Source of the DNA: an uncultured Acidobacteriota bacterium
GTDB taxonomy: Bacteria > Acidobacteriota > Thermoanaerobaculia > Thermoanaerobaculales > Thermoanaerobaculaceae
Direction of reading: 5' to 3'
NCBI GenBank assembly: GCA_963727275.1
Contig: CAVSFK010000004.1
Span: forward strand, 69,076-133,075
DNA: 64,000 bases
In this document: positions 6,566 to 63,197 of the stretch, piece after piece
Layout: each line of letters begins with the position of its first letter
Position numbering within the stretch: the stretch's first letter is position 1
Notes under the pieces: model-generated
What the model saw: only the letters and a program-made list of their open reading frames with translations
Told to the model about the DNA's origin: nothing
The model's database searches: none
Made by a program: the position numbers and the translations under genes

Positions 6566-6576
6566 CTGATCGGCGC

Positions 6577-6894
6577 GGGAGCGCCGATCAGTCATCCCGA
6601 GCGCAGCGAGGGATCCCGTGGGAGCGCGAGGCCGCGGGTGCGCGCGGGAGCGCCGATCAGTCATCCCGAGCGCAGCGAGGGATCCCGTGGGAGCGCGAGG
6701 CCGCGGGTGCGCGCGGGAGCGCCGATCAGTCATCCCGAGCGCAGCGAGGGATCCCGTGGGAGCGCGAGGCCGCGGGTGCGCGCGGGAGCGCCGATCAGTC
6801 ATCCCGAGCGCAGCGAGGGATCCCGTGGGAGCGCGAGGCCGCGGGTGCGCGCGGGAGCGCCGATCAGTCATCCCGAGCGCAGCGAGGGATCCCC
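6577..6894. repeat. perfect 69-bp direct tandem repeat, about 4.6 copies, in the adaptor-permease intergenic space
   Basis: The unit gggagcgccgatcagtcatcccgagcgcagcgagggatcccgtgggagcgcgaggccgcgggtgcgcgc starts at 6577, 6646, 6715, 6784 and 6853, with the last copy truncated. All three forward frames give 23-aa periodic peptides. A hairpin tgactgatcggcgc-ggga-gcgccgatcagtca at 6563-6594 overlaps the macA-like stop codon. Confidence 0.95.
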
Positions 6895-6957
6895 CGGCGT
6901 TGCGAGAGCCACCGGGCGGCCAGCCGCGGCGAGCGAGTCACCGGGAAAGCCTGAGTC

Positions 6958-8187: not shown

Positions 8188-8189
8188 CG

Positions 8190-9446
8190 ATGCGCGCGCT
8201 CGCCCTCATCGTCCGCCTGTTCCGCGGCGCCGCCAAGATCGCCAAGAAGAGGATGATCCTCACGGTCACCGCAATCGCCTGGGGGACCGTAGCGATCATC
8301 CTGCTGCTGTCGTTCGGCGAAGGGCTCCGGCGCAGCCTCGACAAGGGCCGCAAGGGGCTGGGCGAGAGCATCGTCATCATCTGGATGGGCGAGACGGAGA
8401 AGGCGTTCGCCGGGCTGCCCGCGGGGCGGCCGATCCGTCTGATCCCCGACGACGTGGACCTCGTGCTGCGCGGCGTGCCGGAGATCGCCTCCGCCTCCGG
8501 CGAGATGCACAACTGGAACGTGCAGCTCGTGGCCGGCCGCACCGCCCTCAACAAGCGCGTGGTCGGGGTCGAGCCCGCCTACGGCGAGCTGCGGACGAGC
8601 TACCCGCAGCCGGGCGGGCGCTACATCGACGAGCTGGACCAGCGGCTCAAGCGCCGTGTCGTGTTCCTCGGCGACCAGCTCGCCAAGGACCTGTTCGGCC
8701 CCGCGGACCCCGTCGGCCGGACGCTGCTCATCGCCGACACCCCGTTCACGGTCATCGGGGTCCTGCAGAAGAAGCGGCAGATGGGGATGTACGGCGGCCC
8801 CGACGCCGACCGCGCCTCGATCCCGCTCTCCACGTTCGAGGCGATGTTCGGGCGCCGGTTCCTGACCAACCTCGTGTACAAGCCGGCGACCGACGCCCTC
8901 GCTCCGGTCGCCAAGCGCCACCTCATGGAGGTGCTCGGCGCCAAGTACCGCTTCGACCCCGATGACACCCGCGCGCTCTACTTCTGGGACACGATCGCCG
9001 ACTCCAAGATGTTCACCACGATGATGGTCGGCATCGAGCTGTTCCTCGGGATGATCGGCGCCCTCACGCTCATCATCGGCGGCGTCGGGGTGGCCAACAT
9101 CATGTTCGCGGCGGTCACCCATCGGACCCGAGAGATCGGCGTGCAGATGGCCCTCGGGGCGCGCCGGATCTACATCACGGGCTCGATTGTCCTGGAGTCG
9201 CTCGCGCTCACGTTCGCCGGCGGCGTCGCCGGCATCGCGATCGGGGTCACGATCGTTCAGGTCCTGGCGGCGGTGCAGCAGCACGCCAAGAGCGAGGCGA
9301 TGGAGTTTCTCGGGGCGCCGACGATCTCGATCCCGATCGCCGTGACCACGGTCGCGCTGCTCGGGCTGATCGGGCTGCTGGCGGGGTACTTCCCGGCGCG
9401 CCGCGCGGTCTCGGTGCAGCCCGCCGAGGCGCTGCGGTTCGAGTGA
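8190..9446 (+). CDS. ABC transporter permease, MacB/FtsX family (2 of 2)
   Basis: Paralogous architecture (ILTVTAIAWGTVAIILLLSFGEG ... EIGVQMALGA ... AGYFPARRAVSV). The ATG lies 2 nt after the preceding stop. Confidence 0.9.
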   Translation: MRALALIVRLFRGAAKIAKKRMILTVTAIAWGTVAIILLLSFGEGLRRSLDKGRKGLGESIVIIWMGETEKAFAGLPAGRPIRLIPDDVDLVLRGVPEIASASGEMHNWNVQLVAGRTALNKRVVGVEPAYGELRTSYPQPGGRYIDELDQRLKRRVVFLGDQLAKDLFGPADPVGRTLLIADTPFTVIGVLQKKRQMGMYGGPDADRASIPLSTFEAMFGRRFLTNLVYKPATDALAPVAKRHLMEVLGAKYRFDPDDTRALYFWDTIADSKMFTTMMVGIELFLGMIGALTLIIGGVGVANIMFAAVTHRTREIGVQMALGARRIYITGSIVLESLALTFAGGVAGIAIGVTIVQVLAAVQQHAKSEAMEFLGAPTISIPIAVTTVALLGLIGLLAGYFPARRAVSVQPAEALRFE

Positions 9447-22268: not shown

Positions 22269-25200
22269 ATGCGCGTTGATCGGATGCGAGTCGGGCTCGT
22301 CGGCTGGGCGCTCGTCCTGGCGGCAACCGCCGCCGGCGTCTCGGCGCAGACCAAGTTGCTCCGCTTCCCGGACATCCGGGGGGAGGAGGTCGCGTTCTGC
22401 TACGCGGGCGACCTCTGGCTCGCGCCGGCGGCGGGCGGCGCGGCCGCCCGGCTCACGGCCCACCCCGGCCTCGAGCTCTACCCCAAGTTCTCGCCGGACG
22501 GCAAGTGGATCGCGTTCACCGGCCAGTACGACGGTGACGAGCAGGTCTACGTGATCCCGGTGACCGGAGGCGCGCCGAAGCAGCTCACCTGGTACCCGGC
22601 GCGCGGCCCGCTGACGCCGCGCTGGGGGACCGACAACCAGGTCTACGGCTGGACCCCGGACGGCAAGGCCGTGCTCTTCCGCTCGCTGCGCGACGGCTGG
22701 GACCTCGGCGACTCGCGGCTGTACACCGTGTCCGATCGAAGGCGGCCTCCCGGTGCCGCTGCCGATGCCGCAGGCCGGCGCCGGCACGTTCTCCCCCGAC
22801 GGCGCCAGGGTGGCCTACTCGCCGCTGTTCCGCGACTTCAGGACCTGGAAGCGCTACCAGGGCGGGTGGGCCGAGGACCTCTGGGTGTTCGACCTCGCGA
22901 CGCACGCGACGTTCAACTTCACCGACAACCCGCGCACCGACCGCGACCCGATGTGGATCGGGGGCGCGATCTACTTCGCCTCCGACCGCGACGGCACGCT
23001 CAACCTCTACCGGTACGATCTCGCGAGCAAGGCGACCACCCAGCTGACGCACTCGACGACGTCCGACGTGCGCTGGCCGTCGGCCGACCGCGCCGGCCGC
23101 ATCGTCTACGAGCTCGGCGGCGAGCTGCACGTGTTCGAAACTGCGAGCCTCGCCGACCGCGCGATCTCGATCGCGGTGCCCAACGACGGCGTCGCGATGC
23201 GGCCGTCGCGGGTCTCGGCGGAGAAGCTCGTCGAAGACTTCTCGCTCGCGCCCAAGGGGGAGCGAGCCCTGTTCGTCGCGCGCGGCGACGTCTTCACGGT
23301 GCCGATCGAGAAGGGCCCCACCCGCAACCTCACCGACTCCTCGCGCTGGCACGACAAGTGGGCGCGCTGGTCGCCCGACGGCCGCCAGATCGCGTTCATC
23401 TCCGACCGCTCGGGCGAGGAGGAGGTCTGGCTCGTCGACCAGGACGGCTCCGGTTCGCCGCGTCAGCTCACCAAAGGCGGCCGCGCGATGCGCTACGCGC
23501 CGGAATGGTCGCCGGACGGCACGCACATCGCCTTCTCCGACAAGGACGGCCGCCTCTGGGTCGCGAGCGTCGCGGACGGCGCCCTCGTCGAGGCCGCCAA
23601 GGACCGTCGCGGCTCGCTCCGCGACTACGCGTGGTCGCCGGACGGCGCGTTCCTCGCGTTCTCGCTCGCCAACCCCAGCGGGTACCGCTCGATCGCGATC
23701 TGGGCGTTGCAGGACAAGGCCCTCCACGGCGTCACCGACGCGATGTTCAACGCCGTCCATCCGAGCTGGTCGCCGGACGGCCGATACCTGTACTTCCTCT
23801 CCGACCGCGAGTTCGCGCCGCAGCTCTCGACCGTCGAGTGGAGCTTCGCGACCAACCGTACGACCGGGATCTTCGCGCTCGCGCTCGCGAGCGACGCACC
23901 CAACCCGTTCCCGCCCGAGAGCGATGAGGTCAAGATCGAGATGCCCGGAGCGCCGGCGCCCGACGCCGCCAAGGAGAAGGGGACCGAGAAGAGCTCCGCG
24001 GTCGAAAAGCCCAAACCGGTGAAGATCGACTTCGAGGGGCTCGCGGAGCGTGTGGCGCGCGTGCCGGTGGAGGCCGACAACTATGCCGGGCTCGTCGCGA
24101 CCGGCGAGTACCTCGTCGCCCTGCGGACCGGCGCGCCGTACTACGGGCGCGAGGCGGAACCGGCGTCCTCGCTCGTGGTGTTCTCCCTGCACGATCGCAA
24201 GCTCACCACGCTCGTCGACGAAGCCGACGACTTCGCGCTCTCGCGCGACGGCCGCAAGGCGCTGGTCAAGAAGGACGGTGCCTACACGCTGGTCGACGTG
24301 GACCCCAAGTCCAAGGACAGCAAGGAGGCGAGGAAGCCCGTCTCGACGAAGGAGCTCTACGTCGACCGCGTCCCGGCCGAGGAGTGGGCCGAGATCTTCG
24401 ACGAGGTGTGGCGCCGGTATCGGGACTTCTTCTACGTCACCAACATGCACGGCTACGACTGGAGCGCGCTCGGGGCGCGGTACAGGGCGCTGCTGCCGTA
24501 CGTCGCGCATCGCTCCGACTTGAACTACGTCCTCGGCGAGATGGTGGCCGAGCTCAACATCGGGCACGCCTACATCGAGGGCGGCGACTTCGAGGTTCCG
24601 CCCCGCCCCAAGGTCGCGCTGCCGGGCGCCCGCTTCGAGCTCGACCGGACGTCGGGCCGCTACCGGATCGCGGAGATCCTCGCGGGCCAGAACGAGGAGG
24701 AGCGCTACCGCGCGCCGCTGACCGAGATCGGGGTGCACGCCAAGGTCGGCGACTACGTGCTCGCGGTGGACGGCGAGGACCTCAGGGGCACGGACAATCC
24801 GTACCGGTTGCTGCGCAACAAGGCGGACCGGCCCGTGACGCTGACGGTCAACGACTCTCCCGAGGCGAAGGGCGCGCGGACCGTGACCTTCAAGCCGGTC
24901 AGCAGCGAGGTCGAGCTCCGCTACCTGCAGTGGGTGGCGGGCAACCGAACGCGCGTGGACGCGCTGTCGGGCGGCCGAGTGGGCTACATCCACCTGCCCG
25001 ACATGGGGGAGGACGGGATCCGCGAGTTCATCAAGTGGTACTACCCGCAGCTCCGCAAGGAGGGACTCGTCGTCGACGACCGCCGCAACGGCGGCGGCAA
25101 CGTCTCGGCGATGCTGATCGACCGCCTCCGCCGTGCCCTACTGGGCACCGGTTTCTCGCGCACCAGCGAGGACACCGAGACGTACCCGCCGGCGACGTTC

Positions 25201-25581
25201 GTGGGGCCCATGGCGTGCCTGCTCAACGAGACCTCGGCCTCCGACGGCGACATCTTTCCCTACATGTTCCGCCAGGCCGGCCTCGGCCCGCTGATCGGCA
25301 AGCGCTCTTGGGGCGGCGTCGTCGGGATCGACGACCACGGGCCGCTCGTCGACGGTGGCGCCGTCTTCGTGCCCGAGAGCGGCACGGCCTCCGCGGAGGG
25401 GGCGTGGATCATCGAGGGGCACGGCGTCGCCCCGGACATCGTCGTGGAGAACGATCCGGCCTCGGTGCTCGCCGGGCGCGACCCGCAGCTCGAGCGCGCG
25501 GTCGCCGAAGTGATGAAGGCCATCGCGGCGGGCGGGAAGAAGCTGCCGGCGCGGCCGCCCGATCCGGTCAAGACGAAGTGA
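22269..25581 (+). pseudogene. tricorn-type protease homolog (S41 family with beta-propellers and PDZ), interrupted by a +1 frameshift at about 22734
   Basis: The N-terminal ORF (22269..) gives signal peptide + [23 protein letters not shown]...SRLYTVS. It then continues in another frame as [23 protein letters not shown]... to 25581 (ORF 22753-25581). The junction reads gtg tcc G atc gaa. Total length is 3313 nt = 3n+1. This may be a sequencing error. Confidence 0.85.
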
Positions 25582-25657: not shown

Positions 25658-27304
25658 ATGCCCGAGCGGGAGCGGCGCTGGAACGGGTGGGGCTTCACCG
25701 ACGAGCGCGTCCCCGTGCCCGAGCCGGCACGCGCCTGGCTCGGAGTCCGGCTCGGCGCCGGTGACCCGTTGCCGGCCGTGCGCGAGGACGAGGTTTCGAT
25801 CCCGCCGCCGCGACCGCTGCCGTCGTTCGCGGCAACGACCCTGACCGACGCGCCGGTGCGCCTGCGCCACGCCTGCGGCATGTCGTTCCCGGACCTCGTG
25901 GCGCTGCGCAGCGGAACGGTCGCGGCTTGCCCGGACGCCGTCTGCTTCCCGGCCGACGCCGAGGAGGTGGCCGGGCTCCTGCGGACCGCGGCCCGGTCGG
26001 GGCTCGCCGTGATCCCGTGGGGCGGCGGCACCAGCGTGGTCGGCGGCGTGACCGTGTCCGCGGGGGGCCCGCCGACCGTCGTGCTCGCGCTGGATCGTCT
26101 GCGGGGGCTCGCCGCGCTCGACGCGCCCTCACAGCTCGCGACGTTCCGCGCCGGCACGTTGGGGCCCGAGGTGGAGGCGGCGCTCGCACCGCACGGGCTG
26201 CGCCTCGGCCACGAGCCGCAGTCGTTCGAGCTGTCCACCGTGGGCGGCTGGGTGGCGACGCGCTCGGCGGGCCACCGTTCGACCGGGATCGGCAAGATCG
26301 ACGACCTTGCGGCGGGGTTCGAGCTCGCGACCCCCCGCGGGCCGTGGCGGCTCCCGGCCCGGCCGGCGTCGGCCGCCGGCCCGGAGCTGCGCCGGCTCGT
26401 GATCGGCAGCGAGGGGCGGCTTGGCGTGATCACCGAGGTGACGCTGCGGGTCCGTCCCCAGCCCGAGCACCGCGACGGCGTCGCCGTGCTGCTCCCGGGT
26501 TGGGCCGCCGGCGTCGACGTGTGCCGGCAGCTGGTGCAGAACGGTCCGGTGCCCGAGATGCTACGGCTGTCCGACGTCGAGGAGACCGCGTTCGGGTTCG
26601 CGCTCGTCGAGCTTCCCCGGCTGTCGGCGGGAGCCCGGGACGTGCTTCTCCGCCTGCGCCGGTTCCGCCACCCTTGTCTGCTCCTCGCTGAATGGGACGG
26701 AGGCGCCCAGGAGGTCACGCTCGCGCGCCAGGCGGCCGCGCGCGCGTGGCGGGAGGCCGGCGGGCTCGCGCTCGGCCGCTCGGGGTGGCGGCGCTGGCTC
26801 GCCGAGCGGTTTCGCCAGCCGTACCTGCGCGACTCGCTGCTCTCGGCCGGCTGGGGTGTCGACACGCTGGAGACCGCGACGACGTGGACGAACGTCGCCG
26901 AACTGCACGTCGCCGTTCGCGAGGCGATCCTTGCCGCAGGGACCGCCGGCGGCTTCGCGGCGGTCACGCTGTGCCACATCTCGCACGCCTATACGGACGG
27001 CGCCTCGCTCTACTTCACGTTCCTGTGGCCGCTCGCCAAGGGGCGGGAACTGACCCAGTGGCGCGCGCTCAAGAGCGCGGCGACGGAGGCGCTGCTGGAT
27101 CACGGCGGGACGCTCACCCATCACCACGGGGTCGGGACGATGCACGCGGCCTACCTGGAACGCGAGAACGGGCGGGAGGGCGTGGCGGCGTTGCGGGCCC
27201 TGGCCGCGGCCTTCGATCCTGAGGGCGTGCTCAACCCGGGCGTGTTGCTGCCGGCAACGGTTCGCGGCGAGTCGCCGCCGGCGGGCGGCGGGAGGGCGGC
27301 GTAG
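25658..27304 (+). CDS. FAD-linked oxidase, alkyl-dihydroxyacetonephosphate synthase (AGPS)-like
   Basis: N-terminal RRWNGWGF motif typical of AGPS, FAD-binding PCMH-type segment VIPWGGGTSVVGG, and C-terminal HHHGVG. Confidence 0.75.
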   Translation: MPERERRWNGWGFTDERVPVPEPARAWLGVRLGAGDPLPAVREDEVSIPPPRPLPSFAATTLTDAPVRLRHACGMSFPDLVALRSGTVAACPDAVCFPADAEEVAGLLRTAARSGLAVIPWGGGTSVVGGVTVSAGGPPTVVLALDRLRGLAALDAPSQLATFRAGTLGPEVEAALAPHGLRLGHEPQSFELSTVGGWVATRSAGHRSTGIGKIDDLAAGFELATPRGPWRLPARPASAAGPELRRLVIGSEGRLGVITEVTLRVRPQPEHRDGVAVLLPGWAAGVDVCRQLVQNGPVPEMLRLSDVEETAFGFALVELPRLSAGARDVLLRLRRFRHPCLLLAEWDGGAQEVTLARQAAARAWREAGGLALGRSGWRRWLAERFRQPYLRDSLLSAGWGVDTLETATTWTNVAELHVAVREAILAAGTAGGFAAVTLCHISHAYTDGASLYFTFLWPLAKGRELTQWRALKSAATEALLDHGGTLTHHHGVGTMHAAYLERENGREGVAALRALAAAFDPEGVLNPGVLLPATVRGESPPAGGGRAA

Positions 27305-28917
27305 TGTTCCCCCCGGGCTGGCGGGAGCGCGCCTGGGAGCGGCTCGGGGCGCCGCTCGACATCCTGGTGATCGGAGGCGGGATCACCGGCGCCGGGATCC
27401 TGCACGACGCGGCGCTGCGCGGCCTCTCGGTGGCGCTGGTGGAAAAGGGCGACTTCGGTTCCGCGACCTCGTCGCGGTCCTCCAAGCTGATCCACGGCGG
27501 GCTGCGCTACCTGCGCCGCATGCAACTGGGGATCACGCGCACGGCGTGCCGGGAGCGCGACCTGCTGGCCATGACCAACCCGCACCTGGTCTGGCCCGTG
27601 CGCTTCCTGTACCCGTCGTACGACGACGACATCACGCCGGGGTGGCAGGTGGACCTCGGCCTTTCGATGTACGACCACCTCACCCCTGTGCGCCACCACC
27701 ACGAGCGGGTGGATGCCGCGACGGCGACCGGTCTGGTGCCGCTGCTCGCCCGCGACGGACTCGGCTTCGGCCTGCTCTACGACGACGCGGTCGCCGACGA
27801 CGCGCGGCTCGTTCTCGCGGCCGTCGCGGCCGGGGTGCTCGCCGGCGGCGTGGCGGTCAGCTACGCCCGCGTCGATGAGCTGCTCGAAGGGGCGGGAGGC
27901 CGGATCGTCGGCGCGCGCGTGTCCGACCTGGAGACGGGCCGGGTTCACGAGGTGCGCGCCTCGGTGGTGGTCAACGCGACCGGGGTGTGGGCCGACGAGG
28001 TCCGATCGCTGGCCCGCGAGCTCAAGCCCCGGCTGCGCCCGTCGCGCGGGGCGCACGTGCTGTTCCCCCGCACCCGGCTGCCGCTCGACGTGGCGGTCAC
28101 CTCGCTCTCCCCGGACGACGGCCGGCCCGTCTTCGCGGTGCCGCACCCGGAAGGCACCCTCGTCGGAACGACCGACGTCTTTCACGACGGTCCGCTCGAC
28201 GATCCGCGCCCGACGGCGGAGGAGACCGCCTATCTCCTGCGCGCCGCCGCGCACGTGTTCCCGTCGGCCGGCTTGACGGCCGCGGACGTCTGCGGCGCGT
28301 TCGCCGGGGTGCGCCCGGTGCTCTCGAGCCGGGCGGCAACCCCCTCCGAGGCGTCCCGGGAAGAGGCGGTGTGGCGGGAGCGGGGGCTCGTGTCCACCGC
28401 GGGTGGCAAGTTGACGACGTTCCGCGCCACGGCCGAGAAAGTGGTCGACGTCGCGCTGGCGCTCCTGCCGGAGGAACGCCGGGACGGCGCCGGCCCGCCT
28501 CAAACCGAAGCCGTCGCCCTGCCCTGGCGGTGCGACCCGACCGCGACCGTGGCCGCATTGACCGGATCGGGCGTGACGGAGGCGGTCGCCGGCGGCCTGG
28601 TCCGCCGTCTGGGCGCGCTCGCCCTGCCGGCGGCGGTCTCCGCGCCCGATGCGTTGCGGCCGCTCGCCGACGGGCTCGACCTCTGCGGGGCCGAGCTCCT
28701 CTGGCAGCTCCGGGTCGGCGGGGTCGTCCACCTCGAGGACCTCGTGCTGCGCCGGGTGCGCCTGGGGATGTGGCAACCCCGGCGTTGCATGGAGCTGGCG
28801 CCGCGTTTGCGGCCGTTGCTCAGGCGTGCGGCCGGCTGGTCGGTCGCGCGCTGGAACGCGGAGCTCGCCCGCCTCGACCGCGCCGTCGGCAACTGGCTGC
28901 CCCCGGAGGGGCGATGA
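27304..28917 (+). CDS. glpD: FAD-dependent glycerol-3-phosphate dehydrogenase/oxidase
   Basis: DILVIGGGITGAGIL dinucleotide fold, followed by GDFGSATSSRSSKLIHGGLRYL (GlpD hallmark). The GTG start overlaps the preceding TAG. Confidence 0.85.
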   Translation: MFPPGWRERAWERLGAPLDILVIGGGITGAGILHDAALRGLSVALVEKGDFGSATSSRSSKLIHGGLRYLRRMQLGITRTACRERDLLAMTNPHLVWPVRFLYPSYDDDITPGWQVDLGLSMYDHLTPVRHHHERVDAATATGLVPLLARDGLGFGLLYDDAVADDARLVLAAVAAGVLAGGVAVSYARVDELLEGAGGRIVGARVSDLETGRVHEVRASVVVNATGVWADEVRSLARELKPRLRPSRGAHVLFPRTRLPLDVAVTSLSPDDGRPVFAVPHPEGTLVGTTDVFHDGPLDDPRPTAEETAYLLRAAAHVFPSAGLTAADVCGAFAGVRPVLSSRAATPSEASREEAVWRERGLVSTAGGKLTTFRATAEKVVDVALALLPEERRDGAGPPQTEAVALPWRCDPTATVAALTGSGVTEAVAGGLVRRLGALALPAAVSAPDALRPLADGLDLCGAELLWQLRVGGVVHLEDLVLRRVRLGMWQPRRCMELAPRLRPLLRRAAGWSVARWNAELARLDRAVGNWLPPEGR

Positions 28918-29822
28918 GCGGGACCGTGGTGCTCGTGAACCCGGCCGCGGGCGGCGGTCGCGCCGGCGGACTGTGGGCGCGCGTGCGGACCGCGGCGGAG
29001 AGGCTCGCCGCGGTGCGGGTCGTCACGCCGGGGAGCGCCGACGCCTCGCGCCTGGCCGTCCGCGAAGCGGTCGCGGCCGGGTGCGACCGCGTGGTGGCGG
29101 TCGGCGGCGACGGGACCACGCACCTGGTGGCCAACGCGCTCCTCGACGCGAACGCGACCGCGGTCACCCTCGGCATCGTGCCGGCGGGGACCGGCTCCGA
29201 CCTGGCGCGCTCGCTCTCGATCCCGCACGACCCGGATCGAGCGCTGCGCCGGGCGCTATTGGGTGCGCCGACGGCGGTCGACGCGGGGCGTTGCGTCGGC
29301 CCCGCCGGCAGCTTCGCCTTCGTCAACATCGCCTCGGCGGGGATATCGGGGATGGTCGACGAGGCCGTCAACGCGCGTCCGGAGCGCGGGCGCACCGCCT
29401 TCCTTCGCGCCACGCTGGCCGCGCTGCGCCGCTACGCCTGCGTCCCGGTCCGCGTTTCGGCGGACGGCGCGCCGTTCTTCGAAGGGCCGCTGTTCCTGCT
29501 CGCCGTCGCCAACGGGACCACGTTCGGGAAGGGGATGCGCATCGCGCCGACGGCGGTCGTCGACGACGGTCTCTTCGACGTGGTGGCCGTGGCCGAGATC
29601 GCCGGTCCGGAACTGCTCCTGCGGCTGCCGCAGGTCTACCTCGGCCGCCACATGCGCGCCCGGCCCGTTTCCTGGCGCCGGGCCAGGGAGCTTCGCATCG
29701 AGCCGGCCGCGCCGTTGCCCCCATTCGACGTCGACGGCGAGACGTACCCGTCCGGCGCGGCCACGTTCACCGTGCTGCCCGGGGCGCTCCGCGTCGCCGG
29801 GCCGGTCGCCGACGGCGACTGA
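28914..29822 (+). CDS. diacylglycerol/lipid kinase family protein (YegS/BmrU-like)
   Basis: VVLVNPAAGGGRA and VVAVGGDGTTHLVANAL motifs. ATGA overlap with glpD. Confidence 0.8.
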   Translation: MSGTVVLVNPAAGGGRAGGLWARVRTAAERLAAVRVVTPGSADASRLAVREAVAAGCDRVVAVGGDGTTHLVANALLDANATAVTLGIVPAGTGSDLARSLSIPHDPDRALRRALLGAPTAVDAGRCVGPAGSFAFVNIASAGISGMVDEAVNARPERGRTAFLRATLAALRRYACVPVRVSADGAPFFEGPLFLLAVANGTTFGKGMRIAPTAVVDDGLFDVVAVAEIAGPELLLRLPQVYLGRHMRARPVSWRRARELRIEPAAPLPPFDVDGETYPSGAATFTVLPGALRVAGPVADGD

Positions 29823-29940: not shown

Positions 29941-31221
29941 ATGAAGCCGCTCGTGCTGATCGTCGACGACGAGCCGGGGATCCTGACCGAGCTGTCGCAC
30001 ATCCTCGAGGACGAGGGGTTTCGCACCTTGACCACCGGCCGCGGCGAGGAAGCGCTCCAGCTCTACCGCAGCCGCCGGCCCACCGTGGTCTTCCTCGACA
30101 TCTGGCTGCCGGACCGCGACGGCCTGGAGACGCTGCGGGCGCTCCGCGAGATCGACCCCGCGGCCGCCGTGATCATGATCTCGGGGCACGGGACCGCACC
30201 CACGGCGGTCACGGCGATCAAGATGGGCGCCTACGACTACCTGGAGAAACCGCTCGCCTACAGCCGGGTCCTGGAGGCGTTGACCGGTGCGCTGGCCAGC
30301 AAGGGCGCCGGCGCGGCCCAGCTCGATCTCGGCAAGGGGCCCGAGCCCGCCCGCCAGTTCCTGCCGCCGCCGGAGCTTCCCCTGCTGCGTGTAAGCTCGA
30401 CGCCGCAGCGGACGATCGGGTCGAGCACGGTGATCTACGGGCTCGGGCTGCACTCGGGCCGCCGCACCGGGATGGCGATGCTGCCCCTGCCGCCGAACAG
30501 CGGCGTCCACTTCCTGACGCTGCCCAAGGGTACCCAGATCCCGGCCCACCTCGGGTCGGTGGCCGAGACCGAATACGCGACGACGCTTTCGCGCGACGGC
30601 GAGAGCATACGCACGGTCGAGCACCTGCTCGCCGCCCTGCACGCCTGCGGGATCACCAACCTGCTCGTCAAGGTGCACGGCGAGATCCCGGTCCTCGACG
30701 GCTCCGCGCTCGCCTTCTGCGAGCGCCTGGAGGAGATCGGCATCGAGGATCAGGACGCGCCGCGCAAGGAGCTCGTCATCGACCGCCGGTACGAGCTCGA
30801 CGGGAGCGGCGGCAAGAGCCTCGTAGTGGAGCCGGCCGAGGTCCTCTCGGTCGCCTACCGGCTCCGCTACCCGCCGCCCGTGGGCGAGCAGTTCTACGAC
30901 TTCACGCTCTCGAGCTTCGCCGCGTTCAAGGCGGATATCGCCCCCGCGCGTACGTTCGGGTTCATGCGCGACCTGCCGATGATGGCGGAGCTCGGGCTCG
31001 GCTCGGGGGGCCGCCTCGACAACTGCATCCTGATCGGGGAGGACAACGTCATCAACACCGAGCTCCGTTTCCCCGACGAGTTCGTCCGCCACAAGATCCT
31101 GGACGTCATCGGCGACCTCTACCTGCTCGGCTACCCGATCCGCGGTCGGGTCACGGCGTGCCTCACCGGCCACCGCGACAACATCGCCGTCCAGCGGAAG
31201 ATCCTCGCCGCGGCGAGCTGA
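29941..31221 (+). CDS. lpxC: response-regulator receiver domain fused to UDP-3-O-acyl-N-acetylglucosamine deacetylase
   Basis: REC features at aa 1 to about 120: LIVDDEPGI, VVFLDIWLPDRDG, MISGHG, YLEKP. LpxC features from about aa 150 to 426: GLGLHSGR, TVEHLLAAL, LDGSA, ARTFGFMRD, FPDEFVRHKILDVIGDLYLLG, TGHRDN. Confidence 0.85.
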   Translation: MKPLVLIVDDEPGILTELSHILEDEGFRTLTTGRGEEALQLYRSRRPTVVFLDIWLPDRDGLETLRALREIDPAAAVIMISGHGTAPTAVTAIKMGAYDYLEKPLAYSRVLEALTGALASKGAGAAQLDLGKGPEPARQFLPPPELPLLRVSSTPQRTIGSSTVIYGLGLHSGRRTGMAMLPLPPNSGVHFLTLPKGTQIPAHLGSVAETEYATTLSRDGESIRTVEHLLAALHACGITNLLVKVHGEIPVLDGSALAFCERLEEIGIEDQDAPRKELVIDRRYELDGSGGKSLVVEPAEVLSVAYRLRYPPPVGEQFYDFTLSSFAAFKADIAPARTFGFMRDLPMMAELGLGSGGRLDNCILIGEDNVINTELRFPDEFVRHKILDVIGDLYLLGYPIRGRVTACLTGHRDNIAVQRKILAAAS

Positions 31222-31367: not shown

Positions 31368-32492
31368 ATGGCGGACAAGAAGGCGGACCTGGCGGGACCC
31401 GGCATCAGCACCTACGAGGAGGTCGACAAGGTCCTTCCTAGCGACTACAGCTCGATCCTGACCCCGAAAGAGACGCAGATCGCGATCACCTCGATCAAGC
31501 GGTACATCGAGGACGGCCTCTGCCGGGAACTCAACCTGTTCCGGGTCGAGGTCCCGCTCATCGTCAGCAAGGAGAGCGGCGTCAACGACTATCTCGACCG
31601 CGACGGATCTCGGACGCCGATCGAGTTCCCCTGCGGGCTCGGCCTCCCGAAGCGCATCGACACCCAGGTCGTGCAGGCGGCCACCAAGTGGAAGAGGATG
31701 GCCTTGAAGGAATTCGGCTGCAACGTCGGGGAAGGGATCGTCACCGACATGCGCGCCGTTCGCAAGGACTACTTCCTCGACCACGACCACTCCGCGTACG
31801 TCGATCAGTGGGACTGGGAAAGGGTGATGACGCCGGAGCAGCGCAACCTCGAGTTCCTCAAGGACGTCGTGAAGAGGATCTGGAAAGTGCTGCGCGGCGC
31901 GCAGGCGCACGCGTACGAGCTCTTCCCCAAGCTCAAGGGCCGCTACCCGGAGGTGCCCGACGAGCTCAAGTTCCTCCACGCGGAAGAGATCCTCGAGATG
32001 TACCCGGAGCTTCCCCGCAAGCAGAGGGAGACGCAGATCCTGCAGCGCTACCCCGCCGTCTTCATCATCGGGATCGGGTGGGTGCTCGCGGACGGCTACC
32101 CGCACGAGATGCGAGCCGCGGACTACGACGACTGGGTGACGGACACCTCGGGCGAGACGGGCAAATCGACGCACGGCCTCAACGGCGACATCCTGGTGTG
32201 GAACCCGGTCACCAAGCGCCGCCACGAGCTGTCCTCGATGGGCATCCGCGTCACCAAGGGCACGCTGAAGACCCAGCTGGAGCTCTCGAGCCAGCTCGAC
32301 TTCCTCAAGCTGCCGTACCACAAGGCGATCCTCAACGACGAGATCCCGCTCTCCGTCGGCGGCGGCATCGGGCAGTCGCGCACGCTCATGTACCTGCTCA
32401 AGAAGGCCCACCTGGGCGAGGTGAGCGTCACCGTGTGGCCGAGGCAGCTCAAGGAGATCTGCGCGCGGAAGAACATCCACGTGCTGGAGTGA
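31368..32492 (+). CDS. asnA: aspartate--ammonia ligase (asparagine synthetase A)
   Basis: YVDQWDWERVM, LNGDILVWNPV, ELSSMGIRV and GGGIGQSR motifs. Confidence 0.92.
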   Translation: MADKKADLAGPGISTYEEVDKVLPSDYSSILTPKETQIAITSIKRYIEDGLCRELNLFRVEVPLIVSKESGVNDYLDRDGSRTPIEFPCGLGLPKRIDTQVVQAATKWKRMALKEFGCNVGEGIVTDMRAVRKDYFLDHDHSAYVDQWDWERVMTPEQRNLEFLKDVVKRIWKVLRGAQAHAYELFPKLKGRYPEVPDELKFLHAEEILEMYPELPRKQRETQILQRYPAVFIIGIGWVLADGYPHEMRAADYDDWVTDTSGETGKSTHGLNGDILVWNPVTKRRHELSSMGIRVTKGTLKTQLELSSQLDFLKLPYHKAILNDEIPLSVGGGIGQSRTLMYLLKKAHLGEVSVTVWPRQLKEICARKNIHVLE

Positions 32493-32541: not shown

Positions 32542-32904
32542 TCATTGATCGCCGGCGTGCTGCTGCGGAGCGACGCTGGCCCGCTCGAATTGGGTGCGGA
32601 CGATGATGCCGCTATCGTCCACGAGGAAGACCCGCGAGGCCACGAAGTCCGCGAGCTGGGGTGCGCTGTCGGCGCTGTCGATGTCCGGCGCTTCGACGCC
32701 TGTCCCGTGGGCCTCCCAGATGTAGAGAGTGCCGCCGTAGGGGTACGCCATGATCCGGTCGGCCGGGCCGATGCTGGCGACCAGCTCGTTGATGCGGTGG
32801 CCCTCCCACCGCCTGTCGTTGACGGCCGTCGAGGCGCACCCCGCGATCAGGGCCGTCAAGGAAACCACGATTGCCGCAGGGACCCACGTTCGCGCCGTTC
32901 TCAT
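32542..32904 (-). CDS. lipoprotein, hypothetical
   Basis: Signal peptide with lipobox SLTALIAGC. No recognisable domain. Confidence 0.6.
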   Translation of the reverse strand: MRTARTWVPAAIVVSLTALIAGCASTAVNDRRWEGHRINELVASIGPADRIMAYPYGGTLYIWEAHGTGVEAPDIDSADSAPQLADFVASRVFLVDDSGIIVRTQFERASVAPQQHAGDQ

Positions 32905-33165
32905 GTCGCCCTCCCCGTCGCACCTCATCGGACCGTCCCGCCCGACCCCCTGACCCTGCTCCCTCGACCTCTGCGGCGGCTGCCGGTGGGAACGCAGTCG
33001 CGGTAGAGACTCATTTCCAGTATCATGAGATCGGGGGCGGAACCGGGCGCGGCCGTGATGCGGCGCACAGGCGCCGGGACGGAGGCCCTGGCCCTTAGCC
33101 CTGTCAACCATGCGGCACCCGTGGTCGTCGTAGCGTGTGGCGGGACGACGGAGGAGGGTATCGGT

Positions 33166-33570
33166 ATGACTGGCGTGCGGTGGCGTAGCGTGGCGTTGGC
33201 GATGCTCGGTCTCGGCGCGGTGGTGACGCTGGCCGCGTGCAGCACCGTTTCGATCTCCTCCATGCGGTACGTCGGCGCACCAACCGTCGCCCCGACCGAG
33301 CCCTCGGGGGTCGTCCTGTTGCGGCGCGCGCCGGTCCGTCCTCACGAGCGTCTCGGGGAGGTGCGTGTCGAGCCGTCCGGGAGCCCCCCTGTGGCCGAGA
33401 TTGAACAGGCGATCCGGGTCGAGGCCGCCAAGCTGGGCGCGGACGCCGCGGTGCTCGTCTACGACCGGACCCGGCGTGTCGGGACGATCGTCCAGGGCCC
33501 GTGGTGGGGGCGCACCGCCTCGCCGATCTTCGGCCGGGTCATCATCGCGGTCGCGATCCGCTATCGGTAG
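33166..33570 (+). CDS. lipoprotein, hypothetical
   Basis: Lipobox VVTLAAC. GGAGGAGGG lies upstream of the ATG at 33166. Confidence 0.6.
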   Translation: MTGVRWRSVALAMLGLGAVVTLAACSTVSISSMRYVGAPTVAPTEPSGVVLLRRAPVRPHERLGEVRVEPSGSPPVAEIEQAIRVEAAKLGADAAVLVYDRTRRVGTIVQGPWWGRTASPIFGRVIIAVAIRYR

Positions 33571-33725
33571 CGACCGAGGCGCCCGGGGGTCGGCCCGGCG
33601 GACGGGCGGCCTGCGGCACGAGCGGCAAGCCTGACCGCGTCGCGCGGCGTCTCCCCGAAACGCCGTTGCGGTTGCGGACGACCCTGGCCGCGGGGGGGCA
33701 CGCGCTATCCTGCCGCGGGCCCGGG

Positions 33726-35102
33726 GTGGCCTCGTATGTCGCAGAGCCGGCCATCCCGGTCGCGAGCGTGGAGCAGCCTCAGACCCTGACCGTGGGCCGG
33801 ATCTTCCGGTTCTGGGCGCCGCTGGCGGCGACCTGGCTGATGATGTCGATCGAGGGGCCGTTCCTGGCGGCCGTGATCGCGCGGCTCGGCCAGGCCAAGT
33901 TCAACCTGGCGGCGTTCGGGGTGGCGTTCTCGTTCGCGATGCTCAACGAGGCGCCGATCATCATGATGATGAGCGCCAGCGTCGCGCTCGTCAGCGACCG
34001 CCAGTCGTTCCTCGCCCTGCGCCGGTTCGCCTACACCCTCAACGCCGTCATCACGCTCGTGATGGGCCTCGTCCTCGTGCCGCCGGTCTTCGGGTTCCTC
34101 GCCGAACGCCTCATCGGCCTCCCGCACGAGGTCGCCGCCCTCACCCACGTCGCGACGGCGATCCTCGTCCCCTGGCCGGCCGCAATCGGCTACCGCCGCT
34201 TCTACCAGGGGATTCTCATCCGCGCCAACCTGACCCGGCGCGTGGCCTACGGGACGGTGGTCCGTGTGCTGGCGATGGCGATCACGGCCATCGCGCTGTA
34301 CGCCAGCACGTCGATCCCGGGCGCCTTCGTCGGGGCGGCCGCGCTCTCCGCCGGCGTGACTGCGGAGGCGGTGGCGAGCCGGTTCATGGCGCGGGCGTCC
34401 GTGCGGCGCCTCCTCGCCGACGCCGAACCGCGGCCGGCCGTCGGGCCGCTGACGACGCCGGCGATCCTCAGCCTTTACGCGCCGCTCGCCCTCACCTCGA
34501 TGCTCACGCTGGGCGTCAACCCCCTGGTCACGTTCTTCCTCGGGCGCGGCCGCGCCGCCCTCGACTCGCTCGCGATCTGGCCGGTCGTCGCGTCCATGGT
34601 GTTCGTGTTCCGCAGCGGCGGCGTCGCCTACCAGGAGGTGGGGATTGCCCTTCTCGGCGACGACCGCCGCGGCTTCGCCGCCTTACGCCGCTTCGCCGGG
34701 CTGCTCGCCCTCGGCACGGCCGGCGCGCTCGCGGTCGTGGCGTTCTCACCGCTCGCCTCGTGGTGGCTGTCCGTGGTCTCCGGGCTGTCGAGGGAGCTGA
34801 GCAGGTTCGCGCTCACCCCGCTGCGGGTCCTGGCCATCATGCCGGCCCTCGAGGTGCTGCTCTCGTTCCAACGCTCGCTCCTGGTGCACGCGCGCCAGAC
34901 GGCGCGGATCACCTGGGCGACCGCCGTGGAGGTGAGCGGCATCATCGCGGTCCTCGCGGTGGGGGTGGCGGCGTTCGACGCCGTCGGCGCCGTCGCCGCC
35001 GCCGTCGCGATCCTGGTCGGCCGCGTCGCCGCCAACGCCCTCCTGAGCCGGCACGCACCGGGGCCCGGTGCGGTCCGCGCGAGCGGGGTGGCTAGCGGGT
35101 GA
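33726..35102 (+). CDS. polytopic membrane protein, MOP/MATE-flippase-like
   Basis: About 12 hydrophobic helices with two-fold internal symmetry. The start is uncertain; GTG at 33726 or 33768 are candidates. Confidence 0.55.
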   Translation: MASYVAEPAIPVASVEQPQTLTVGRIFRFWAPLAATWLMMSIEGPFLAAVIARLGQAKFNLAAFGVAFSFAMLNEAPIIMMMSASVALVSDRQSFLALRRFAYTLNAVITLVMGLVLVPPVFGFLAERLIGLPHEVAALTHVATAILVPWPAAIGYRRFYQGILIRANLTRRVAYGTVVRVLAMAITAIALYASTSIPGAFVGAAALSAGVTAEAVASRFMARASVRRLLADAEPRPAVGPLTTPAILSLYAPLALTSMLTLGVNPLVTFFLGRGRAALDSLAIWPVVASMVFVFRSGGVAYQEVGIALLGDDRRGFAALRRFAGLLALGTAGALAVVAFSPLASWWLSVVSGLSRELSRFALTPLRVLAIMPALEVLLSFQRSLLVHARQTARITWATAVEVSGIIAVLAVGVAAFDAVGAVAAAVAILVGRVAANALLSRHAPGPGAVRASGVASG

Positions 35103-43370: not shown

Positions 43371-43723
43371 TGGTGGAGGCGGGGGGAATCGAACCCCCGT
43401 CCGGAGGACTTGGGCCGCAGGTGTCTCCGTGCGCAGCCTACGGTTGGTTCTCGTCACGGCGGCTGGGCGTAGGCTCCCGACCGCCGCGACCAGCCCGATT
43501 TCTCTCGACCGCCGCTGCCGGGCGAAGCGGCGGTCCAGCCTGCTTTGGCGTCGCCGTGATCAGGTTCGCAGGCGGGAGCCGGCGATCACGACGTGACTGC
43601 GGTTAGGCAGCCAGTGCTAGCTCAGTGTTGGCAGCTATGAGTGTCCGCCTGTTTAACGTGGCGGCGGGCCACGACACGCTGCCGGCGACCCAACATGTCC
43701 CCCGTCGAACCCGGTACGCCCCC
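43371..43723 (-). ncRNA. ssrA: transfer-messenger RNA (tmRNA)
   Basis: The reverse strand starts GGGGGCGTACCGGGTTCGACGGGGG and ends GGACGGGGGTTCGATTCCCCCCGCCTCCACCA. The acceptor stem has a G3:U pair. The tag ORF GCT GCC AAC ACT GAG CTA GCA CTG GCT GCC TAA (43635-43603) encodes (A)ANTELALAA*. Confidence 0.93.
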
Positions 43724-52604: not shown

Positions 52605-53153
52605 CTATCCGGCGAAGACCATGTCCTCGGGGAGCGCCGGGTGCGCGTCCCGGTACGCCGCCCAGAGGTCGAGGTAGGTGCCGTGCGCCGCGTCCCGCGG
52701 ATCGAGCCCGAGATCGGCGGCTGCGGCCGCGAGGCTCGCGCCGGCCCCCTCGAGCTCGACGAAGTCGCCCATCGGGGTCTCGTCGAGCGCCACCACGATC
52801 GCCCCGAGCGCCCAGGTCTCACGCCGCTTCTGGTAGCGCCGAACCGTGCGGAACCCGAGCGCGCCGAGGATGGCGAGGGTGCGCTCGGCGTCGCCGACGA
52901 CGGTCTCGAGCTCGACGCGGCTCTTGATGCCGTCGGCGAACGAGCCCGGCTCCTTGAGCGTGAGCGAGCCCTCGTGCCCGGCCCGTCGCACCCGCAACAG
53001 GCGGCCGGCGGCGCGCAGGCCGTTGCGGCCGTCGTCCAGCACCCAGTTCTCCTCGAGGGTGAGCGCGCTGAGCAAACGGCCGCCGGCCGCCGCCAGCCGT
53101 TGCCGGACGGCCGGGAGGGACGACACCGGGACCTTCATCTCCTGCTCGAGCAC
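52605..53153 (-). CDS. CYTH-domain protein (class IV adenylate cyclase / triphosphatase-like)
   Basis: LEQEMKVPV (ExExK-type motif), LRVRR, LTLK, VALDE..GDFVELE. Start candidates are GTG 53159, GTG 53153 and ATG 53138. Confidence 0.7.
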   Translation of the reverse strand: MLEQEMKVPVSSLPAVRQRLAAAGGRLLSALTLEENWVLDDGRNGLRAAGRLLRVRRAGHEGSLTLKEPGSFADGIKSRVELETVVGDAERTLAILGALGFRTVRRYQKRRETWALGAIVVALDETPMGDFVELEGAGASLAAAAADLGLDPRDAAHGTYLDLWAAYRDAHPALPEDMVFAG

Positions 53154-53180
53154 GCGCACTCCGGCGGTTAGTATAGGCGG

Positions 53181-55082
<1,902 letters not shown>

Positions 55083-63187: not shown

Positions 63188-63197
63188 CGCTCGTCTC

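What the first reader, a model, noticed from the sequence alone, without database searches (positions are those of the whole stretch)
29941..31221. Receiver (REC) domain fused in-frame to an apparently active LpxC
A single 426-aa ORF starts with a complete response-regulator receiver. It has the acidic pocket DDEPGI, a phospho-acceptor Asp in VVFLDIWLPDRDG, MISGHG, and the conserved Lys in YLEKP.

After a ~30-aa Ala/Gly/Pro linker, the rest aligns end to end with UDP-3-O-acyl-GlcNAc deacetylase. All zinc and catalytic positions are kept (TVEHL, FVRHKILDVIGDL, TGHRDN).

LpxC is the committed step of lipid A synthesis. In E. coli it is controlled by FtsH/LapB proteolysis. A phosphorylation-gated LpxC would be a different control logic. 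No histidine kinase is present in the window. The gene sits directly after a lipid-metabolism operon.
Basis: partly seen in the sequence, partly recalled or inferred. Interest (0 to 1): 0.75.

Follow-up and report, generated by a model that had tools for sequence, protein, structure and literature searches.

The report
Signal-receiver domain fused to LpxC enzyme
This gene joins a phosphorylation-sensing receiver domain to LpxC, the enzyme that commits a cell to making the lipid A anchor of its outer membrane; the fusion is real, conserved across a whole class of Acidobacteriota, descends from an NtrX regulator fused to LpxC, and has not been studied, so it points to a direct signal-to-enzyme control of outer-membrane synthesis.

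Summary
Window 29941-31221 (+) encodes one 426-aa protein with three parts: a complete receiver (REC) domain (aa 1-118), a 36-aa variable Ala/Gly/Pro linker, and a full-length LpxC (aa 155-426). All phospho-chemistry residues and all zinc and catalytic residues are present, and they are invariant or nearly so in 120 homologues.

It is not an assembly artefact. About 71 species-level genomes from two orders of Thermoanaerobaculia carry the same fusion.

The LpxC domains of all fused proteins form one clade, apart from stand-alone LpxCs. That clade also holds long forms, REC-AAA+-HTH-LpxC and REC-HTH-LpxC, in other phyla. Those long forms sit in DUF4390-ntrY-ntrX operons. The target is therefore a stripped-down, orphan NtrX::LpxC fusion.

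NtrYX is already known to lower lpxC transcript levels in two alphaproteobacteria. Here the link is physical.

The fused clade has no C-terminal tail of the kind that carries the FtsH degron in E. coli LpxC. No histidine kinase lies in the window, and the upstream lipid operon is not a conserved neighbour.

Phosphorylation control of LpxC is the best-supported mechanism, but it is inferred. I found no paper on this architecture. I rate it a new variant of a known kind, interest about 0.68.

The parts
29941..31221 (+). Whole REC-linker-LpxC gene (426 codons plus stop)
   Evidence: The ATG at 29941 matches the N-termini of homologues, consensus MxELVLIVDDE.
29941..30294 (+). Receiver (REC) domain, aa 1-118, NtrX/NtrC type
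   Evidence: Pfam PF00072 covers aa 5-114. The best NCBIfam receiver match is NtrX at 105 bits; the next best is 83. AF2 predicts five alternating strand/helix units, consistent with a (beta-alpha)5 fold.
29965..29970 (+). Acidic pocket D9-D10
   Evidence: D in 120 of 121 sequences; the other has a gap.
30097..30099 (+). Phospho-acceptor Asp53
   Evidence: D in 120 of 121 close homologues and in 48 of 50 distant fused representatives.
30181..30252 (+). Switch residues: S81 at 30181-30183, Y100 at 30238-30240, K103 at 30247-30249, followed by P104
   Evidence: S81 and K103 are invariant in 121 sequences; Y100 is Y or F.
30295..30402 (+). Variable Ala/Gly/Pro-rich linker, aa 119-154. Its last part (PPPxLPLLR) is conserved and predicted to be ordered.
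   Evidence: Mean column conservation is 51%, against 81% for REC and 84% for LpxC. pLDDT is below 50 only at aa 123-136. P143 and P144 are nearly invariant.
30403..31218 (+). LpxC deacetylase domain, aa 155-426, with no C-terminal tail
   Evidence: PF03331 matches end to end. TIGR00325 scores above its cut-off. The best solved relative is P. aeruginosa LpxC, E 2.4e-47. The AF2 model superposes on A. aeolicus LpxC with a target-normalised TM-score of 0.92 and rmsd 1.9 Å.
30619..30624 (+). E227-H228, which align with P. aeruginosa LpxC Glu-His (E. coli E78 general base and H79 zinc ligand; assignment from my own knowledge)
   Evidence: Alignment. Invariant in 121 close homologues and 45 distant fused representatives.
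31090..31116 (+). H384, K385, D388, D392 (E. coli H238 and D242 zinc ligands, plus K239 and D246; assignment from my own knowledge)
   Evidence: All invariant.
31171..31173 (+). H411 (E. coli H265, catalytic His; assignment from my own knowledge)
   Evidence: Invariant.
25658..29822 (+). Upstream operon of FAD-linked oxidase, GlpD-like dehydrogenase and YegS-type lipid kinase. It is a neighbour, not a conserved partner.
   Evidence: It is found within a few kb of the fusion in only 4 of about 68 related loci.
31368..32492 (+). Downstream asnA (aspartate-ammonia ligase). It is a neighbour, not a conserved partner.

Best explanation

Origin: it descends from one old fusion of an NtrX-type regulator (REC-AAA+-HTH) to LpxC. 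That fusion still exists in full form next to the kinase gene ntrY in other phyla. In Thermoanaerobaculia the AAA+ and DNA-binding parts were lost. What remains is an NtrX-type receiver tethered by a flexible linker to a catalytically competent LpxC, encoded away from its kinase.

Proposed mechanism: a membrane histidine kinase encoded elsewhere phosphorylates Asp53. It would be of the NtrY type, or HAMP-PAS like the kinase next to the gene in three relatives. The usual S81/Y100/K103 switch then changes how the receiver packs against the LpxC domain, or whether it dimerises. That raises or lowers deacetylase activity, so lipid A flux is set directly by an envelope or redox signal. In E. coli the same job is done by FtsH/LapB proteolysis.

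What is shown and what is inferred:
- Shown: the domain make-up, residue conservation, phylogenetic origin, the ntrY linkage of the longer relatives, and the absence of a C-terminal tail.
- Inferred: that phosphorylation happens, that it changes activity, in which direction, and that this is the cell's only LpxC.
For: Domains and residues:
- Both domains are complete.
- Receiver residues D9, D10, S81 and K103, and LpxC residues E227, H228, T338, H384, K385, D388, D392 and H411, are invariant in 121 sequences. D53 is present in 120 of 121.
- The same holds in distant fused representatives: D53 in 48 of 50, catalytic residues in 45 of 45.
- Both domains are under similar constraint (81% and 84% mean column conservation), while the linker is free to vary (51%).

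Spread:
- About 71 species genomes in Thermoanaerobaculales and Ca. Multivoradales carry the fusion.
- Short forms also occur in a complete Spirochaetota genome.

Origin:
- The long forms are REC + Sigma54_activat + AAA_lid + LpxC, and the mid forms are REC + HTH_8 + LpxC.
- P0122 matches the NtrX model end to end, positions 3-450 of 452.
- P0122 and P0128 lack GAFTGA, which I recall (not checked here) is also true of NtrX (read).
- Three loci have the operon DUF4390 - NtrY - fused gene: L082, L083 and L091. A fourth has NtrY followed by REC-LpxC on a frameshifted contig.
- In an NJ tree of LpxC domains, all fused proteins form one clade apart from 64 stand-alone LpxCs. Bootstrap support is 52 of 60.

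Structure and tail:
- AF2 gives pLDDT 88.7 and pTM 0.86, with only aa 123-136 disordered. That is higher than two independently placed domains should give, so a fixed REC-LpxC arrangement is predicted.
- Fused-clade LpxCs end a median of 7 aa after the domain; stand-alone ones end 31 aa after it.
- The target ends 3 aa after the last residue aligned to E. coli LpxC, which runs 28 aa further. That extension carries the FtsH degron (PMC12444477).

Precedent for the wiring:
- NtrYX lowers lpxC transcript and LPS in R. sphaeroides and C. crescentus (PMC7240162; PMC12444477).
- An NtrC-family regulator has lpxC as its only target in D. vulgaris (PMC3333781).
Against: - No activity or phosphorylation data exist.
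- No kinase is in the window, and none is conserved next to the gene in Thermoanaerobaculia.
- I could not scan whole genomes, so a second, stand-alone lpxC or the absence of any NtrY cannot be excluded.
- The coordinates and PAE of the AF2 model were not available. The interdomain contact rests on pTM alone, and the alignment was shallow (76 sequences at 69-85% identity).
- One well-populated variant, P0028 (45 member sequences), has Val at position 53. The protein can therefore exist without the acceptor.
- In the R. sphaeroides paper, NtrX was not found bound upstream of lpxC, so the effect there may be indirect.
Confidence: 0.6

Rival explanations
1. The receiver does not change catalysis. 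Instead it controls how much LpxC there is, or where it is. In one phosphorylation state it would act as a handle for a protease or adaptor (Lon, ClpXP or FtsH), or for membrane or partner binding. In effect it would replace the missing C-terminal degron.
For: - The fused clade lacks the C-terminal tail.
- Regulated proteolysis is the known logic for LpxC control (PMC12444477).
- Receiver domains do act as phosphorylation-dependent protease adaptors. RssB appears among the receiver matches; CpdR is from my own knowledge.
- A Lon gene lies about 3.8 kb away in 7 of about 68 loci.
- A LON_substr_bdg protein lies directly upstream in the Spirochaetota genome, and ClpX lies nearby in L088.
Against: - The protease neighbours are sporadic, so they are not conserved synteny.
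- The high pTM points to an intramolecular arrangement rather than a free handle.
- There is no direct test.
Confidence: 0.2
2. The fused protein is an accessory, condition-specific paralogue. A canonical stand-alone LpxC elsewhere in the genome does the housekeeping, and the fusion only adds extra or altered deacetylase activity under a particular signal.
For: - Whole genomes could not be searched.
- One locus carries a second partial LpxC-like fragment (L050).
- A true stand-alone LpxC (P0267) is nested in the fused clade, so the architecture can change.
Against: - The fusion is kept with invariant catalytic residues across two orders.
- No second lpxC appears in about 1.3 Mb of flanking sequence from about 70 genomes.
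- The nearest stand-alone LpxCs that carry a name come from NC10 and Nitrospirota, not Acidobacteriota.
- The domain scores above the lpxC equivalog cut-off.
Confidence: 0.15
3. The receiver is a relic. It no longer receives phosphate and serves only as a structural or dimerisation module, so LpxC activity is constitutive.
For: - The gene is orphan, with no kinase in the window.
- The P0028 variant has Val53.
- The AAA+ and HTH domains have already been lost in this lineage.
Against: - All five phospho-chemistry positions, plus the aromatic switch residue, are invariant or nearly so in 121 close and 50 distant sequences. I would not expect that of a pseudo-receiver (my own knowledge).
- Receiver conservation equals that of the enzyme domain.
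Confidence: 0.05
4. The fusion is an assembly or frameshift artefact that joins two adjacent genes.
For: None found.
Against: - The same in-frame architecture appears in 120 of 120 best clusters from NCBI, JGI, ENA and Logan assemblies.
- It also appears in about 71 species genomes, including closed or megabase-scale long-read contigs.
Confidence: 0.01

Closest known systems
Stand-alone LpxC (UDP-3-O-acyl-GlcNAc deacetylase) of E. coli, P. aeruginosa and A. aeolicus
   Same: It has the full LpxC domain with the same zinc ligands and catalytic residues. Identity to the P. aeruginosa enzyme is 36% in the structure-based alignment. The predicted fold superposes with a TM-score of 0.92.
   Different: It carries an N-terminal receiver plus linker. 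It has no C-terminal tail or FtsH degron. Its LpxC domain belongs to a separate clade made up of fused proteins.
NtrX of the NtrY-NtrX two-component system
   Same: The receiver is most similar to NtrX. Longer relatives match NtrX end to end, lack GAFTGA, and occupy the ntrX slot of DUF4390-ntrY-ntrX operons. NtrYX is known to influence lpxC expression and LPS level.
   Different: The target has neither the AAA+ domain nor the HTH_8 domain, and it is not next to ntrY. Control would act on the enzyme itself rather than on transcription.
DVU2934 of Desulfovibrio vulgaris, an NtrC-family regulator whose only mapped target is lpxC
   Same: An NtrC-family receiver is dedicated to LpxC control. In one relative, lpxC lies next to the regulator operon (PMC3333781). 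That arrangement could give rise to a fusion.
   Different: It is a separate DNA-binding protein that acts on the lpxC promoter. I did not compare its sequence here.
Bifunctional LpxC-FabZ fusions (NF009667)
   Same: This is another natural fusion of LpxC that couples it to a related control point.
   Different: The partner there is a C-terminal dehydratase, not an N-terminal signalling domain. The target matches only the LpxC part of that model: 196 bits against a cut-off of 465.
Response regulators with enzymatic outputs (CheB, PleD, RpfG; from my own knowledge)
   Same: The layout is the same: a receiver, a flexible linker and an enzyme. Phosphorylation relieves inhibition or drives dimerisation.
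   Different: The output here is a biosynthetic enzyme of central envelope metabolism, not a signalling enzyme. I found no description of an LpxC output.
FtsH/LapB control of E. coli LpxC
   Same: Both are post-translational controls of the same committed step.
   Different: Control there is by degradation through a C-terminal degron and an adaptor. The target has no tail. Whether LapB is present could not be tested.

Membership tests
LpxC (PF03331 / TIGR00325) | End-to-end match to the family profile above the curated cut-off | tested here: met
   PF03331 matches profile positions 1-267 of 268 at 272.6 bits (cut-off 27). TIGR00325 scores 239 bits (cut-off 187.25).
LpxC (PF03331 / TIGR00325) | Zinc ligands His79, His238 and Asp242 (E. 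coli numbering) | tested here: met
   H228, H384 and D388 align to these residues. They are invariant in 121 close and 45 distant sequences.
LpxC (PF03331 / TIGR00325) | Catalytic Glu78 and His265, plus Thr191, Lys239 and Asp246 | tested here: met
   E227, H411, T338, K385 and D392 are present and invariant.
LpxC (PF03331 / TIGR00325) | Two-layer LpxC fold with its inserts | tested here: met
   The AF2 model against A. aeolicus LpxC gives a target-normalised TM-score of 0.92 and rmsd 1.9 Å over 271 columns.
LpxC (PF03331 / TIGR00325) | Deacetylase activity on UDP-3-O-acyl-GlcNAc, and the rest of the lipid A pathway in the genome | not testable with these tools
   No assay was possible.
Response-regulator receiver (PF00072) | Profile match above the cut-off and a (beta-alpha)5 fold | tested here: met
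   99.9 bits against a cut-off of 30.2. AF2 predicts five alternating strands and helices, aa 4-120.
Response-regulator receiver (PF00072) | Acidic pocket, acceptor Asp, Ser/Thr, aromatic switch residue and Lys | tested here: met
   D9, D10, D53, S81, Y100 and K103 are all present and conserved.
Response-regulator receiver (PF00072) | Phosphorylation by a cognate histidine kinase | not testable with these tools
   No kinase is in the window. Relatives lie next to NtrY.
NtrX / NtrC-family regulator | Central AAA+ (Sigma54_activat) domain | tested here: not met
   It is absent from the target. It is present in the relatives P0122 and P0128.
NtrX / NtrC-family regulator | C-terminal Fis-type HTH_8 DNA-binding domain | tested here: not met
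   It is absent from the target. It is present in P0133, and readable in P0122.
NtrX / NtrC-family regulator | Gene adjacent to ntrY | tested here: not met
   There is no NtrY in the window or in the Thermoanaerobaculia loci. The feature is met in L082, L083 and L091. The target is a descendant of this family, not a member.
LpxC-FabZ bifunctional enzyme (NF009667) | C-terminal FabZ dehydratase domain | tested here: not met
   Only the LpxC part matches, at 196 bits against a cut-off of 465. The protein ends at the LpxC domain.
FtsH/LapB-regulated LpxC (enterobacterial type) | C-terminal degron tail (LAXXXXXAVLA) beyond the catalytic domain | tested here: not met
   The target ends 3 aa after the residue aligned to E. 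coli position 277 of 305. The median tail in the fused clade is 7 aa, against 31 aa in stand-alone LpxCs. The degron definition is from PMC12444477.

The most novel reading that the evidence does not exclude
In Thermoanaerobaculia, and in several other phyla, the only LpxC of the cell is itself a response regulator. [quoted passage not shown] That is a third, direct mode of LpxC control, beside proteolysis and transcription.

The long forms (REC-AAA+-HTH-LpxC) would be proteins that both bind DNA and carry out the enzymatic step. The known but unexplained NtrYX-lpxC link in alphaproteobacteria would be the unfused version of the same ancient circuit.
Probability: 0.45. Interest if true: 0.8.

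Novelty: new variant of a known kind. Interest (0 to 1): 0.68.

Why it matters
LpxC is the flux-controlling and usually essential step of lipid A synthesis, and it is an antibiotic target. How bacteria outside the Enterobacteriaceae regulate it is an open question, as a 2025 review states (PMC12444477).

This gene family gives that question a concrete, testable answer for a whole bacterial class and for members of at least four other phyla: the enzyme is wired directly to two-component signalling.

The fusion series also works as a 'Rosetta stone'. It independently supports a functional NtrYX-LpxC connection that so far has been seen only as a possibly indirect transcript effect in two alphaproteobacteria.

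The system should be tractable in vitro. The protein is small and probably soluble, there are small-molecule phospho-donors, and an LpxC assay already exists.

There is a practical point too. Annotation pipelines name these proteins plain 'LpxC', which hides the regulatory domain.

Tried and rejected
- **Assembly artefact:** rejected.
- **Functional coupling to the upstream lipid operon or to asnA:** rejected as a conserved feature. tblastn of window neighbours against 71 loci finds them in only 3-5 close relatives, and extra genes lie between the operon and the fusion there.
- **Any conserved neighbour in Thermoanaerobaculia:** all-against-all clustering of 898 flanking ORFs found none shared by more than 12 of about 68 loci. 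None of the inspected clusters resembles an lpx gene.
- **A kinase in the window:** not found by Pfam, motif screen or tblastn.
- **A second lpxC near the fused gene:** only one partial fragment, in L050.
- **A second lpxC elsewhere in the genome:** Naming the nearest stand-alone LpxC clusters gave NC10 and Nitrospirota, which is uninformative.
- **P0171, an apparent 'stand-alone' close relative:** it turned out to be a REC-LpxC broken by frameshifts on an error-rich contig.
- **Interface residues from the AF2 model:** coordinates and PAE are not exposed, so only pTM could be used.
- **Literature:** eight of the nine searches targeted the architecture (LpxC with receiver domain, output domain, Response_reg, REC-LpxC, Acidobacteria, NtrX, CheY-like, Thermoanaerobaculia). 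None found a description of it.
- **Promoter and terminator scan around the gene:** nothing useful.
Full report
**1. The observation**

Window 29941-31221 (+) is an uninterrupted 426-codon ORF.
- Pfam finds a receiver at aa 5-114 (E 1.2e-28) and an end-to-end LpxC domain at aa 156-422, covering profile positions 1-267 of 268 (E 4.9e-81).
- The NCBIfam lpxC equivalog TIGR00325 scores 239 bits against a cut-off of 187.
- The nearest solved structures are P. aeruginosa, E. coli and A. aeolicus LpxC, with E from 2e-47 to 4e-41. NtrC-family and NtrX receivers follow at about E 1e-22.
- All quoted motifs are at the stated places. The residues are D9/D10, D53, S81, Y100 and K103 in the receiver, and E227/H228, T338, H384/K385/D388/D392 and H411 in LpxC.
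- The linker (aa 119-154) is 36 aa long and rich in Ala, Gly and Pro.

The window has about 71% G+C. Its closest relatives are Thermoanaerobaculaceae MAGs.

**2. It is a real, conserved gene**

- The 120 best 90%-identity clusters, at 69-98% identity and from four independent sources, all carry both Pfam domains. Nearly all are 424-453 aa long.
- A scan of one genome per GTDB species returned about 71 genomes with the full-length fusion at 61-84% identity. Several are megabase contigs, and one is a closed 5.1-Mb chromosome.
- These genomes cover Thermoanaerobaculales and Ca. Multivoradales, two orders of the class Thermoanaerobaculia.
- In an alignment of 121 sequences, the receiver and the enzyme are equally constrained (81% and 84% mean column conservation). 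The linker is not (51%).
- D9, D10, S81, K103 and every LpxC catalytic residue are invariant. D53 is Asp in 120 of 121; the exception, P0028, has Val.

**3. Surroundings**

No histidine kinase and no other lpx gene is in the window. I checked with Pfam on about 57 ORFs, a six-frame HATPase motif screen that did pick up known NtrY genes in control loci, and tblastn with NtrY.

The three upstream genes are an FAD-linked oxidase, a GlpD-like dehydrogenase and a YegS-type lipid kinase. They form a tight operon with overlapping stop and start codons, and a 118-nt gap separates them from the target. asnA follows downstream.

This context is not conserved. Only four close genomes keep the operon nearby, and in them it lies 1-3 kb further away. 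Clustering 898 flanking ORFs from about 68 loci found no neighbour shared by more than 12 loci. So the 'lipid operon' adjacency carries little functional weight.

**4. Where the fusion comes from**

A search of 1.84 billion 50%-identity representatives showed that the best relatives are not only short REC-LpxC proteins of 412-461 aa, down to 34% identity. They also include proteins of 650-736 aa and about 490-505 aa.

Pfam shows the following:
- The long ones are REC + Sigma54_activat AAA+ + AAA_lid + LpxC. In some, the AAA+ domain is visibly eroded.
- The middle ones are REC + HTH_8 + LpxC.

Reading the sequences, the long forms also keep a Fis-type helix-turn-helix just before LpxC. They lack the GAFTGA loop and have a degenerate Walker B motif, features I recall (not checked here) as typical of NtrX. 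P0122 matches the NtrX model over positions 3-450 of 452. The receiver of the window protein also hits NtrX best.

Named members of these clusters come from 'Deltaproteobacteria' MAGs, Nitrospinota, Ca. Entotheonellia and a Spirochaetota genome.

Gene context settles their identity. In L082, L083 and L091 the fused gene is the third gene of a DUF4390 - NtrY - NtrX-type operon. In L081 a short REC-LpxC, broken by sequencing frameshifts, directly follows an NtrY-like kinase. Short forms elsewhere are orphans in housekeeping contexts.

An NJ tree of LpxC domains alone puts all fused proteins in one clade, apart from 64 stand-alone LpxCs. The Thermoanaerobaculia group is nested inside it. The split has 52 of 60 bootstrap support.

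The simplest reading is one old ntrX::lpxC fusion, followed by repeated loss of the AAA+ and HTH modules and, in some lineages, separation from ntrY. One true stand-alone LpxC inside the clade (P0267) shows that the receiver can also be lost.

**5. Mechanism**

*Shown:*
- The receiver has all the chemistry needed for phosphorylation.
- The enzyme has all the chemistry needed for deacetylation.
- A flexible tether joins them.
- There is no C-terminal tail. The target stops 3 aa after the position aligned to E. coli residue 277 of 305. The median tail is 7 aa in the fused clade and 31 aa in stand-alone LpxCs.

In E. coli that tail carries the FtsH degron, and LapB contacts it (PMC12444477).

AlphaFold2 gives mean pLDDT 88.7 and pTM 0.86, with only aa 123-136 disordered. 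The LpxC part superposes on A. aeolicus LpxC with a TM-score of 0.92. A pTM this high for a 120 + 275-residue protein suggests that the two domains are predicted in a fixed mutual arrangement.

*Inferred:*
- A kinase encoded elsewhere phosphorylates D53. It would be NtrY-like by descent. In three relatives, a HAMP-PAS kinase and a sigma-54 NtrC-type regulator sit directly upstream.
- The switch changes receiver-enzyme packing or dimerisation, and with it LpxC activity.
- The direction is unknown. By analogy with NtrYX lowering lpxC transcript and LPS in R. sphaeroides, where loss of ntrYX raises the transcript 8.8-fold (PMC7240162), signalling through the system may restrain LpxC.

*Rivals:*
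- The receiver controls stability or localisation instead of catalysis.
- The fusion is an accessory paralogue.
- The receiver is a relic.

The last fits poorly with the invariance of the phospho-residues across close and distant members. The first two could not be tested here.

**6. Comparison with what is known**

The protein meets every sequence and fold criterion for LpxC and for a receiver domain. It fails the criteria for NtrX (no AAA+, no HTH, not next to ntrY), for LpxC-FabZ, and for the degron-bearing enterobacterial type of LpxC.

Known links between two-component systems and LpxC are transcriptional: NtrYX and ChvGI in alphaproteobacteria and DVU2934 in D. vulgaris. The 2025 review of lipid A regulation does not contain the words fusion, fused or receiver. 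Eight of my nine literature searches targeted the architecture, and none found a description of it. Source annotations call these proteins simply LpxC or NtrX.

**7. Verdict**

The architecture is widespread rather than rare, which lowers the surprise of this single gene. [quoted passage not shown]

I rate it a new variant of a known kind (a response regulator with an enzymatic output; regulation of LpxC), with interest 0.68.

The main gaps are the lack of any functional data, the unknown kinase, and the untested question of whether this is the only LpxC of the cell.

Noticed in passing
window 43371-43723 (-): A tmRNA gene (Rfam RF00023, 155.6 bits; ARAGORN tag peptide ANTELALAA). It overlaps the 5' part of a stop-to-stop ORF whose real product is a CutA1 protein starting further downstream.
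   Followed up: partly
window 25658-29822 (+): An FAD-linked oxidase (GlcD-like, below every equivalog cut-off), a GlpD-like glycerol-3-phosphate dehydrogenase and a YegS-type lipid kinase have overlapping stop and start codons and look like one operon.
   Followed up: partly
protein P0028 (homologue at 79% identity, cluster of 45 member sequences, 110-kb contig): This natural variant has Val in place of the phospho-acceptor Asp53, while everything else is conserved. It could be a lineage with constitutive behaviour or a ready-made control for experiments.
   Followed up: no
L047 about 4900-8300; L067 5706-9173; L068 about 5800-9100: In three Thermoanaerobaculia species, a HAMP-PAS-HisKA-HATPase kinase (opposite strand) and a full sigma-54 NtrC-type regulator (REC-AAA+-HTH_8) lie directly upstream of REC-LpxC. 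This could be a branched pathway with one kinase and two receivers.
   Followed up: partly
L050 4416-4682: A second, partial LpxC-like stretch (61% identity over 89 aa) lies about 1 kb downstream of the intact REC-LpxC. It is probably a remnant of a duplication.
   Followed up: no
L089 999-1850 (protein P0267): A genuine 283-aa stand-alone LpxC is nested inside the fused clade, after STAS and YggT genes. It looks like a secondary loss of the receiver.
   Followed up: partly
L091 3176-13069: In the DUF4390-NtrY-[REC-mid-LpxC] operon of a marine metagenome contig, LolA and MlaC genes lie within a few kb. These are further envelope-lipid functions near the fused gene.
   Followed up: no
L081 5000-8900: This long-read contig is full of frameshifts. 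Its NtrY-like kinase, receiver and LpxC are each split into several ORFs, so the database protein P0171 looks like a stand-alone LpxC but is not.
   Followed up: yes
window 33501-35102 (+) and 32542-33345 (-): A 533-aa hydrophobic, probably multi-pass membrane protein and a 267-aa ORF have no Pfam or NCBIfam hit. The membrane protein is kept downstream of the fused gene in the five closest genomes.
   Followed up: no
window 61247-63998 (-), 52605-54875 (-), 22753-25581 (+): Other notable genes: a multihaem cytochrome (Paired_CXXCH_1, running off the window end) next to a 646-aa ORF with no family hit; a 756-aa protein with only a C-terminal CYTH domain; and a 942-aa Tricorn-like protease.
   Followed up: no
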